Assembly (NCBI GenBank): GCA_964016885.1
Contig: OZ024745.1
Span: forward strand, 109,678,001-109,742,000
From: Eledone cirrhosa
Lineage: Eukaryota
Reading direction: 5' to 3'
DNA length: 64,000 bases
The position numbers and the translations under genes were made by a program. The notes below the pieces were generated by a model. The model saw only the letters and a list, made by a program, of their open reading frames with translations, searched no databases and was not told where the DNA came from. This document shows positions 14,012 through 14,680 of the stretch, in pieces. Numbering within the stretch: position 1 is the stretch's first letter; each line of letters begins with the position of its first letter.

Positions 14012-14679
14012 GAAAATATTTTACCCCAATGGCAGAGCTCAAGCCGTTTTGATGGCTATTTCTGGACTACGAGTCCAGAAATAGCCGTCGAAATGGCTTG
14101 AGCTCCGCCATCGGGGTTAAACATTTTCCTATTACCCACTCTACTACCCTAAGTATTGAGTACTCTGGTGCGTTATGGTCCATCTGGTTCCTTACCACAC
14201 CTCCTTCGTTATATATATATATATAGGAACGAGTAGGACCCCGACGGCTGAGCTGAAGCCGTTTCGACGGCTAATTCTGGACTAAAAAAAAAAGATTTTT
14301 GTTTTAGTCCAGAATTAGCCGTCGAAACGGCTTCAGCTCAGCCGTCGGGGTCCTACTCGTTCCTATTACCCACTCTACTACCCTAAGTATTGAGTACTCT
14401 GGTGCGTTATGGTCCATCTGGTTCCTTACCACACCTCCTTCGTTATATATATATATATAGGAACGAGTAGGACCCCGACGGCTGAGCTGAAGCCGTTTCG
14501 ACGGCTAATTCTGGACTAAAAAAAAAAGATTTTTTTTTTAGTCCAGAATTAGCCGTCGAAACGGCTTCAGCTCAGCCGTCGGGGTCCTACTCGTTCCTAT
14601 TACCCACTCTACTACACTAAGTATTGAGTATTTTGGTGCGTAATGGTCCACGAGGTTCCTTACCACATGTCCTTCATTT

Positions 14680-14680
<1 letters not shown>
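14012..14680 (+). mobile_element. Three tandem copies of a hairpin-plus-tail element separated by (TA)n
   Basis: Near-perfect 144-bp hairpins at 14223-14366 and 14457-14600 (period 234) and a more diverged one at ~14022-14120. Each is followed by the tail TACCCACTCTACTACCCTAAGTATTGAGTACTCTGGTGCGTTATGGTCCATCTGGTTCCTTACCACAC or a close variant. Confidence 0.9.

What the first reader, a model, noticed from the sequence alone, without database searches (positions are those of the whole stretch)
14012..14680. 'Half-hammerhead' hairpin elements: palindromes centred on a hammerhead stem II, with the catalytic CUGANGA replaced by a mirror copy
Seen: the right arm reads stem II' (CCAGAATTAGCCGTC), GAAA (14324-27), stem III ACGGCT/AGCCGT, GTC triplet (14344-46), then GGGGTCC; this is the 3' half of a type I hammerhead. 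Where stem I and CUGANGA should lie there is the exact reverse complement of that half. All five copies in the window (three here, 31970, 40244) fold at the same point, have the same ~75-bp unique tail and sit in (TA)n; four also share the same outer arm boundary (TAGGAA). Established: Penelope-like elements carry hammerheads and form inverted repeats with a 3' tail, and retrozymes form tandem arrays. Inference: cDNA folds back on the stem II hairpin and self-primes, or the quasi-palindromic ribozyme is corrected to a perfect palindrome. This gives a ribozyme-dead but still amplifying family whose RNA could be cleaved in trans by a CUGANGA-bearing partner or yield dsRNA.
Basis: partly seen in the sequence, partly recalled or inferred. 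Interest (0 to 1): 0.85.

Follow-up and report, generated by a model that had tools for sequence, protein, structure and literature searches.

The report
Penelope hairpins recording RNA 5' ends
These hairpins are the shortest insertions of a very abundant Penelope-like jumping gene whose longer copies carry a whole hammerhead-ribozyme motif with a rare core, and their centres likely mark where two reverse-transcribed copies ran off the front end of the RNA (a capped start site inside the ribozyme or, less often, the ribozyme's predicted cut), which would show how such elements insert.

Summary
The hairpins are real but are not a separate ribozyme-dead family. They are the shortest insertions of a Penelope-like retrotransposon with Hydra-clade protein motifs (tail 29-mer: 28,415 exact hits). 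Longer copies continue into a 3.06-kb unit with an RT plus GIY-YIG-type ORF and a whole type I hammerhead whose core is YUGANAA (mostly U3-A8), not CUGANGA.

The centres are individually made. In 58 of 100 copies the tail-bearing arm stops 50-64 nt from the outer arm end. At one base in loop 2, 5,877 arms carry a non-parental purine, G in 85 of 100 listed, as expected when a cap is copied; both arms can show it. A second class (258 hits) has both arms at or within a few bases of the predicted cut, mostly exactly there, with A/T additions; the control 6 nt upstream gave 2 loci.

Best reading (0.7): two cDNAs primed from both target strands copy a sense RNA to its 5' end and are joined head to head. 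This argues against self-priming on an antisense template. No RNA data or cleavage assay was available.

The parts
14012..14068 (-). Copy 1, inverted tail-less arm (TAAACATT-type subfamily); inner end at the A called position 58
14069..14071 (.). Copy 1 centre (ACG); the G directly before position 58 is the likely cap-copy letter
   Evidence: pattern (inference)
14072..14209 (+). Copy 1 tail-bearing arm: 3' half of the hammerhead (14072-14129) and 80-bp tail (14130-14209)
14226..14283 (-). Copy 2, inverted tail-less arm from the outer end (end of the parent's stem I closing helix) to position 58
14284..14305 (.). Copy 2 centre: A/T run, 3 letters on each side parental, the rest untemplated
14306..14363 (+). 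Copy 2 tail-bearing arm: likely transcription start A at 14306, stem II 3' strand 14316-14323, GAAA 14324-14327, stem III to 14345, GTC 14344-14346, predicted cut 14346/14347, stem I 3' strand
14364..14443 (+). 80-bp tail; in tandem parents it runs on into the 5' UTR and ORF
14460..14677 (+). Copy 3: same arms and nearly the same centre as copy 2, different tail; likely source of the 234-bp duplication
31972..32166 (+). Copy of an older subfamily (GGCCGGAGCTC stem III); its parents also carry the U3-A8 core
40246..40438 (-). Fifth copy, tail-bearing arm on the minus strand, position 58 at 40383, arms overlapping at the centre

Best explanation
The hairpins are the shortest insertions of an abundant Penelope-like retrotransposon with Hydra-clade protein motifs, and each was likely made from two separate cDNAs, one primed on each nicked strand of a (TA)n target, that copied a sense RNA to its 5' end and were then joined head to head. 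One cDNA would start at the tail end and the other 80 nt further 5', at the end of ribozyme stem I; both sites end at a TA that matches the target. Most templates were likely capped transcripts that start at an A in loop 2 of the hammerhead, so they begin with only the 3' half of the ribozyme; the enzyme would add a C opposite the cap, read as a G before that A. A minority of templates likely began at the ribozyme cut (GUC then GGGG), giving tiny hairpins with A/T additions. Long copies would come from the uncleaved downstream repeat. SHOWN: parent element, ORF motifs, whole hammerhead motif with YUGANAA core, the two fixed outer ends, the two clusters of inner ends and their added letters. 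INFERRED: cap, start site, cleavage in vivo, two primers, end joining.
For: Parent: 5 of the first 30 tail copies continue into a shared upstream sequence; an RT plus C-terminal nuclease frame of 710 codons; a tandem unit of 3,057 bp in which the tail runs into the ORF. Hammerhead: unconstrained alignment fold of 16 parents is a three-way junction with the core single-stranded; position 7 takes all four bases while 4-6 and 9 are fixed in the rows found (the patterns required them); stem II has a G-C/A-U swap between subfamilies. Cap signature: 5,877 arms have a purine before position 58 where parents have T or C; 85 G and 15 A in the 100 listed (by eye; p 5e-13 against 1:1). Of 46 of them read in context, 21 G and 6 A cannot come from the partner arm (p 0.006), and of 19 that can, 18 are G. 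Four further hairpins picked for having G on both arms read GGACT-C...G-AGT. In unselected junctions the first added cDNA letter is C in 4 of 5 arm ends at 58 and 7 of 29 elsewhere (p 0.03). An extra 5' G is read as cap copying for L1 (PMC11702581, passages); Penelope has an internal promoter in its upstream repeat (PMC2377424, passages). Cut-site class: 29 of the first 100 of 880 very short hairpins end both arms at the cut (by eye; 30 checked by script); 258 hits genome-wide, of the 100 listed 47 with untemplated inserts, 32 blunt, 21 ambiguous; the same pattern 6 nt upstream gives 4 hits = 2 loci. Two cDNAs: tail-less arm at least 15 nt longer in 15 of 65 copies, 11 after removing 4 internal deletions, the reverse in 2; the TTCAG variant is on one arm only in 8 of 11 hairpins that carry it. 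The anole enzyme cuts and extends both strands and starts at two internal sites that bound the tail (PMC11167929).
Against: No RNA evidence at all: start site, cap and cleavage are read from DNA scars. The inner ends form a broad cluster (51-62), with as many arm ends at 52 and 57 as at 58, and some arms run to 59-64, so trimming, several start sites or pausing must be added. Arms agree in subfamily in 45 of 46 copies, which fold-back predicts equally well. About 4 of 65 centres keep the parent's small ATTC...GAAT hairpin exactly as fold-back would. The downstream control (arms of about 12) gave 167 hits, so short junctions are common 3' of the cut and the signal is a step more than an isolated spike. 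The cut lies at the foot of stem III (-7.2 kcal/mol), a possible pause site. Covariation is not above shuffles (134 of 500), single parents fold no better than shuffles in the sense strand (z -0.1 to -0.9), Rfam finds no hammerhead, and 35 of 100 listed parents have a C3.A8 mismatch. Later deletions can mimic unequal arms. Several counts are by eye from listings of the first 100 hits, mostly on contig 1.
Confidence: 0.7

Rival explanations
1. Same element and two cDNAs, but the inner ends mark places where the reverse transcriptase stalls on RNA structure (the distal hairpin of stem II and the foot of stem III) in a long read-through RNA, not RNA 5' ends.
For: Predicted distal hairpin whose 3' strand covers positions 54-63; broad spread of ends 51-62; the cut site is 1-2 nt from the base of stem III; anole RNA-seq showed no reads ending at the cut (PMC11167929).
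Against: Stalling does not explain why the added letter is G at position 58 but mostly A/T at the cut (21:6 against 10:13, p 0.02). The distal loop sequence differs wholly between old and young subfamilies, while the YYAGTY motif at 58 is kept. In 47 of 100 cut-site hits both arms stop at the same base, before any stem III pair.
Confidence: 0.15
2. One cDNA (or an antisense template) folds back and primes itself, giving the inverted arm; this is the first reader's route and the model proposed for rotifer Penelope elements.
For: Proposed in PMC3846280 from palindromes at inverted junctions (passages); arms match in subfamily in 45 of 46; about 4 of 65 centres keep the parent's mini-hairpin; 30 of 65 centres show short overlaps (by eye).
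Against: It cannot give a tail-less arm that holds parental sequence missing from the tail-bearing arm (11 of 65), untemplated letters between two arms that both stop at the cut (47 of 100 listed), a separate extra C/G on each arm, or one-arm variants (8 of 11). A cap letter at a sense-strand start points to a sense template.
Confidence: 0.1
3. The hairpin is itself a non-autonomous unit (retrozyme-like, MITE-like or Helitron-like) that amplifies as such from a ribozyme-dead master.
For: Very high copy number; local tandem of three copies; a few centres recur twice.
Against: 30 distinct centres in 34 hairpins; a continuum up to multi-kb inverted copies with the same two outer ends; no complete ribozyme per unit; inverted repeat at one side only; the tandem fits unequal crossover.
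Confidence: 0.04

Closest known systems
Hydra clade of Penelope-like elements (Craig et al. 2021, PMC8557442; passages, section 11, supplement file 1 part 2 of 59)
   Same: Single ORF with C-terminal GIY-YIG-type nuclease; RWR (RWK), DKT, CxCx5C, no CCHH, CxxC and CxH around E and N; (TA)n targets; adjacent inverted 5'-truncated copy with a one-sided tail; type I hammerhead in the repeat.
   Different: All Hydra hammerheads listed there have CUGANGA cores, short stem II and a 1-3 nt loop III; this one has YUGANAA, a loop 2 of about 35-39 nt and a 5-6 bp stem III. Tail 80 bp against 30-40. Unit 3.06 kb against mostly under 3 kb. The listed Hydra-1_oBim hammerhead is a different sequence, so this is another family.
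Poseidon of the green anole, PAc (Frangieh et al. 2024, PMC11167929; main text read)
   Same: Two internal start sites that bound the tail, cutting and extension of both target strands, AT-rich targets, hammerhead near the ORF start.
   Different: There the ORF starts inside stem II, no RNA ends were seen at the cut, and second-strand steps were left open. Here the ORF starts about 90 nt after the tail, and genomic junctions pile up at the cut and at a likely capped start.
U3-A8 hammerheads (Schistosoma Cercyon PLE, PMC4209133; other natural cases, PMC3088659; passages)
   Same: U3-A8 in place of C3-G8; known in nature and reported active in vitro.
   Different: Those PLE motifs are minimal and lack stem III. 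This one has all three stems, a conserved GAGCTC palindrome in loop III, and side lineages with C3.A8 and U3.G8.
L1 twin priming and the extra 5' G of full-length L1 insertions (PMC11702581; passages)
   Same: Second cDNA primed from the other target end, inversion joined by end joining, extra G from the cap.
   Different: L1's second primer anneals at variable internal places and gives an inversion without overlap. Here both start sites are fixed and both cDNAs copy the same stretch, giving a near-perfect palindrome.
Non-LTR retrozymes (bioRxiv 10.64898/2026.07.22.740005; part 1 of 5 and passages; supplements closed)
   Same: PLE-derived, type I hammerhead, can be tandem.
   Different: Retrozymes carry a complete ribozyme in each direct-repeat unit; these hairpins carry half, inverted, with individual centres.

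Membership tests
Penelope-like elements (EN+) | Single ORF with RT and GIY-YIG nuclease | tested here: met
   710-codon open frame with YRDDG and VIY...YIG in a natural copy; 403 homologues at E<=0.001, 36-52% identical among the 120 listed; motifs conserved in alignment. Pfam scan of this copy gave no family.
Penelope-like elements (EN+) | Partial tandem forming pseudo-LTRs | tested here: met
   L125: repeat, tail, ORF, repeat; 3,057 bp core to core.
Penelope-like elements (EN+) | Adjacent inverted 5'-truncated copy and one-sided tail | tested here: met
   Inverted arms of 0.2-1.9 kb in the long loci; left arm called in 65 of 100 copies. Tail is 80 bp, longer than the 30-40 bp in print.
Penelope-like elements (EN+) | Target-site duplication | tested here: inconclusive
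   97 of 100 tails end in a TA run, which hides any duplication.
Hydra clade | RWK, DKT, CxCx5C linker, no CCHH, CxxC and CxH in the nuclease | tested here: met
   RLRWRT, SDKTG, CNCPDRSIC, one Cys between VIY and YIG, CNLC and CKH.
Hydra clade | Insertion into (TA)n | tested here: met
Hydra clade | Canonical CUGANGA hammerhead and length under 3 kb (traits described for the clade) | tested here: not met
   Core YUGANAA; unit 3.06 kb. Filed as Hydra-like, not as a proven member.
Hydra clade | Placement in the RT tree with named Hydra proteins | not tested
   No named Hydra reference protein came back; no tree was built.
Type I hammerhead ribozyme (parent) | Three stems around the conserved core, G10.1-C11.1, A15.1-U16.1, NUH triplet | tested here: met
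   Unconstrained consensus fold; G-C and A-U pairs in 16 of 16, 88% of cells paired against 28-49% for slid controls.
Type I hammerhead ribozyme (parent) | Watson-Crick pair between positions 3 and 8 | tested here: inconclusive
   U-A in 64, C.A in 35, other 1 of the 100 listed parents (by eye); G8 in 30 genome-wide, 3 of them C-G.
Type I hammerhead ribozyme (parent) | Covariation above chance; Rfam match | tested here: not met
   134 of 500 shuffles reach the score (sequences closely related); no hammerhead family at E<=10 in three parent loci.
Type I hammerhead ribozyme (parent) | Self-cleavage after the triplet | not testable with these tools
   Only indirect: junctions at the predicted cut.
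Non-LTR retrozyme | Complete hammerhead in each tandem unit | tested here: not met
   No core 5' half in any window copy.
MITE | Inverted repeats at both termini, uniform copies | tested here: not met
   The tail lies outside the inverted repeat; centres and lengths vary; parent is an RT element.

The most novel reading that the evidence does not exclude
This genome holds a fossil record, thousands of copies deep, showing that Penelope-like elements insert by symmetric twin priming on a capped sense RNA: both arms end at a start site placed inside the hammerhead (so the message begins with an incomplete ribozyme and keeps its cap), and a second class ends exactly at the cut, which would be genomic proof that a U3-A8 PLE hammerhead cleaves in the germ line and that its products are reverse-transcribed.
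Probability: 0.55. Interest if true: 0.75.

Novelty: new variant of a known kind. Interest (0 to 1): 0.55.

Why it matters
The architecture (inverted copy, one-sided tail, (TA)n target) is textbook Penelope, so the hairpin itself is ordinary. What is useful is the record in the centres. Two questions are open in the papers I read: how the head-to-head inverted repeats form (self-priming on an antisense template was proposed in PMC3846280; second-strand steps were left open in PMC11167929), and whether PLE hammerheads cut in vivo (no RNA ends at the cut in the anole). An extra G on both arms at one base points to a capped sense template copied twice. Paired ends at the GUC point to cleavage. 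Both can be tested directly by 5'-end mapping, a cleavage assay on a natural copy, and the same junction census in other PLE families. The family also shows that CUGANGA-only searches miss a ribozyme present in at least 2,717 copies. I found no report of these junction signatures in nine library searches; subscription papers, Repbase and most supplements were not searched.

Tried and rejected

Rfam: no hammerhead in the window at gathering score or in three parent loci at E<=10. Pfam: no family for the 710-aa frame.

Idea that the C3.A8 lineage is a dead ribozyme: the CCTACTCG subfamily is under-represented among cut-site junctions (15 of 79 against 38 of 100, p 0.008; counts by eye), but the same subfamily is enriched among trimmed junctions with CC/GG overlap. 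By a linked tail marker, 13 of 15 of its cut-site copies lack the U3 marker, no different from background (2 of 15 against 5 of 43 with it). So C3.A8 is not shown to be dead; left open.

Covariation test: not above shuffles. Folding z-scores of single parents: not significant for the three sense-strand folds; the fourth sequence was given on the wrong strand and is dropped.

RNA: no RNA holder listed. Contigs of runs X1 and X2 were laid: loose ends reading (TA)n at the tail end and the arm end agree with the two outer ends, but contig depth cannot rank parts and the runs are of unknown kind, so I draw nothing more from it.

Loop 1-loop 2 pairing (CUGGU with ACCAG) fits only one subfamily (by eye); dropped. 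The long-arm values were capped by self-matches, so long copies are taken. Earlier findings by sequence and by place: none. No tree, structure prediction or count of intact ORFs was run.

Full report
1. Observation. The window is AT-rich eukaryotic DNA full of microsatellites and tRNA-like repeats; the genome is 3.0 Gb. It looks like a cephalopod, but that is my impression and was not tested. The described hairpins are present at the stated coordinates, and BLAST finds five copies in the window. Numbering below counts bases upstream of the outer arm end (TTCC before TA): the predicted cut is between 18 and 17, GAAA starts at 40, the stem II 3' strand is 41-48, and the A of AGTCC is 58.

2. A large dispersed family. 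A search with one unit gave 929 candidates, of which 40 were scored. A 29-mer of the tail has 28,415 exact hits, control 0. I took the first 100 of these in positional order on contig 1 as a sample not chosen by arm structure. It leaves out copies with changes in that 29-mer, including part of one subfamily. In it 97 tails end in a TA run; the tail-bearing arm stops at 50-64 in 58 copies, below 50 in 31, at 65-99 in 2 and at 100 or more in 9; a left arm was called in 65. Of 34 hairpins with both arms past stem II, 30 centres are distinct.

3. The parent. The CTGANGA search gave 30 heterogeneous hits. But 5 of the first 30 tail copies continue upstream into shared sequence. Long loci hold an RT frame and a C-terminal nuclease. 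In L125 the tail runs on into a 5' UTR and the ORF, with 3,057 bp from core to core. Many long copies are flanked by an inverted, tail-less copy 0.2-1.9 kb long that ends at the same TTCC. The protein has RWR, DKT, CxCx5C, no CCHH, CxxC and CxH, the traits given for the Hydra clade (PMC8557442 section 11), and 403 homologues. Pfam gave nothing and no tree was run. The Hydra-1_oBim hammerhead in that paper's supplement is a different sequence (I read part 2 of 59).

4. The ribozyme. Parents read ACCCC-YTGANAA-G..CGGCTA-loop-TAGCCGTC-GAAA-stem III-GTC-GGGGT. The 5' half has 2,717 hits (inverted pairs count twice); among the 100 listed, 64 are U3-A8, 35 C3.A8 and 1 other (by eye). G8 occurs in 30 copies, canonical C3-G8 in 3. 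The older subfamily of window copy 31972 has 127 parents, about 90 of the 100 listed with U3-A8, and a CAGCTA/TAGCTG stem II. The unconstrained consensus fold of 16 hand-picked parents is the hammerhead three-way junction. Against: covariation is not above shuffles, single folds are not better than shuffles, and Rfam does not match. U3-A8 is known in a Schistosoma PLE and elsewhere (PMC4209133, PMC3088659; passages). The tail-less arm ends where the closing helix of stem I ends.

5. First junction class: a likely capped start. Parents have T or C at 59. Genome-wide 5,877 arms have a purine there; 85 G and 15 A in the 100 listed. In 46 read in context (the first 46 listed), 21 G and 6 A cannot come from the partner arm, and 18 of the 19 that can are G, which fits pairing of an added C with a G of the partner (a first pass without mismatches gave 18 G and 3 A of 30). 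Four hairpins picked from the list for G on both arms read GGACT-C, 1-6 letters, G-AGT. In unselected junctions with inserts the first added cDNA letter is C in 4 of 5 ends at 58 and 7 of 29 elsewhere (small numbers). The YYAGTY motif at 58 is kept between old and young subfamilies while the rest of loop 2 is not; it resembles an initiator (recalled). An extra G is read as cap copying in L1 (PMC11702581), and Penelope starts inside its upstream repeat from an internal promoter (PMC2377424). Against: arm ends spread over 51-62, with 13 at 52, 14 at 57 and 11 at 58 among 76, and a predicted distal hairpin covers 54-63.

6. Second junction class: the predicted cut. Among 880 very short hairpins, 29 of the 100 listed read GACCCC, 0-6 letters, GGGGTC (by eye; first 30 checked by script). 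A direct pattern gave 258 hits; of 100 listed, 47 have untemplated inserts (single A 12, single T 10, ATT, TT and others), 32 are blunt (ambiguous between 17 and 18 because of CG overlap) and 21 are ambiguous. Against about 19,493 tail-bearing copies of these subfamilies this is about 1%. The same design at 23/23 gave 2 loci; at about 12/12 it gave 167 hits, many with one arm still reaching 17 or with CC/GG overlap. So ends are common at and below the cut and nearly absent in that control just above it. Added letters here are not G-rich (cDNA C:T 10:13 in multi-letter inserts against 21:6 at 58, p 0.02). A pause at the foot of stem III is the main rival. Only two control positions were tested.

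7. One cDNA or two. Fold-back of the tail-primed cDNA cannot put into the left arm sequence that the right arm lacks. That is seen in 15 of 65 copies, 11 after removing four with internal deletions; the reverse difference is seen in 2 (very short left arms and long copies are under-called). The TTCAG variant is on one arm only in 8 of 11 hairpins that carry it (10 of these 11 come from loci picked by likeness to the window). Arms agree in subfamily in 45 of 46, so both likely come from one RNA or one source. About 4 of 65 centres keep the parent's ATTC...GAAT mini-hairpin and fit fold-back or a 4-nt annealing. The anole enzyme cuts and extends both strands and starts at two sites that bound the tail (PMC11167929). 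Self-priming on an antisense template was proposed earlier (PMC3846280); the cap letter and the sense-strand cut site argue against it for this family.

8. Model. Transcription likely starts at A58 in the upstream repeat, so the message begins with the 3' half of the hammerhead, then tail and ORF, and ends in a whole hammerhead. The enzyme would nick both strands of (TA)n and start at two TA-ending sites. On the 5' copy of these sites both cDNAs run off after about 58 and 138 nt and are joined: the common hairpin. On RNA already cut at GUC they run off at 17. On the uncleaved 3' copy they give long, 5'-truncated inverted copies. The half-ribozyme could in principle be cut in trans by the 5' half of another copy (inference; untested). 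In the window, copies 2 and 3 likely arose by one 234-bp unequal crossover between two neighbouring insertions.

9. Novelty. The element type, architecture and U3-A8 core each have precedent, and earlier notes of this scan reached the same general reading in other genomes (unchecked AI notes, seen last). I found no report of the two-arm cap letter or of paired ends at the cut in nine searches. Papers seen: PMC11167929 parts 1-2 of 4 and passages; PMC8557442 passages, section 11 and part of supplement 1; PMC4209133, PMC2377424, PMC3846280, PMC11702581, PMC3088659 passages only; bioRxiv 10.64898/2026.07.22.740005 part 1 of 5 and passages. Supplements not seen (anole Fig. S1-S2, the preprint's files) may bear on this.

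10. Verdict. Observation confirmed; interpretation partly supported. New variant of a known kind. Identity as short PLE insertions about 0.97; real hammerhead fold in the parent about 0.9; full mechanism 0.7; interest 0.55.

Noticed in passing
window 13833-13880: A canonical CTGATGA...GAAAC motif with a short stem II, 140 bp upstream of the finding; likely a fragment of another Penelope-like family. It does not fold better than shuffles.
   Followed up: partly
window 40861-41139: A second, unrelated palindrome ending at a (TA)n run, with a CTGATGA...TGAAA motif on each arm (40960 minus, 41039 plus); likely the same kind of insertion from another PLE family.
   Followed up: partly
window 60392-60475: Canonical hammerhead-like motif with a long stem II; folds better than shuffles (z -2.8) but the predicted fold is one long hairpin.
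   Followed up: partly
L204, L205, L207, L209, L210, L213: A small lineage with a U3.G8 core (TTGAAGA) and its own loop 2; with U3-A8 and C3.A8 lineages it gives natural variants of the 3-8 pair for assay.
   Followed up: partly
L072/L073; L155; L162: Some insertions carry a tail on both arms, so both cDNAs may sometimes start at the tail end.
   Followed up: no
alignment A2, columns 85-90: The GAGCTC palindrome in loop III is kept in all 16 parents while its neighbours change, as in hammerheads that work as dimers.
   Followed up: no
window 53277-53334, 53923-53995, 58351-58408: tRNA-like heads, probably SINEs.
   Followed up: no
window 6861-10001, 27840-31237, 51571-52742: Satellite arrays of 72, 30 and 14 bp.
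   Followed up: no
L041, L044: Two copies sit next to the same unrelated repeat that ends in a CTGAGGA motif; possibly insertions into another PLE's inverted junction.
   Followed up: no
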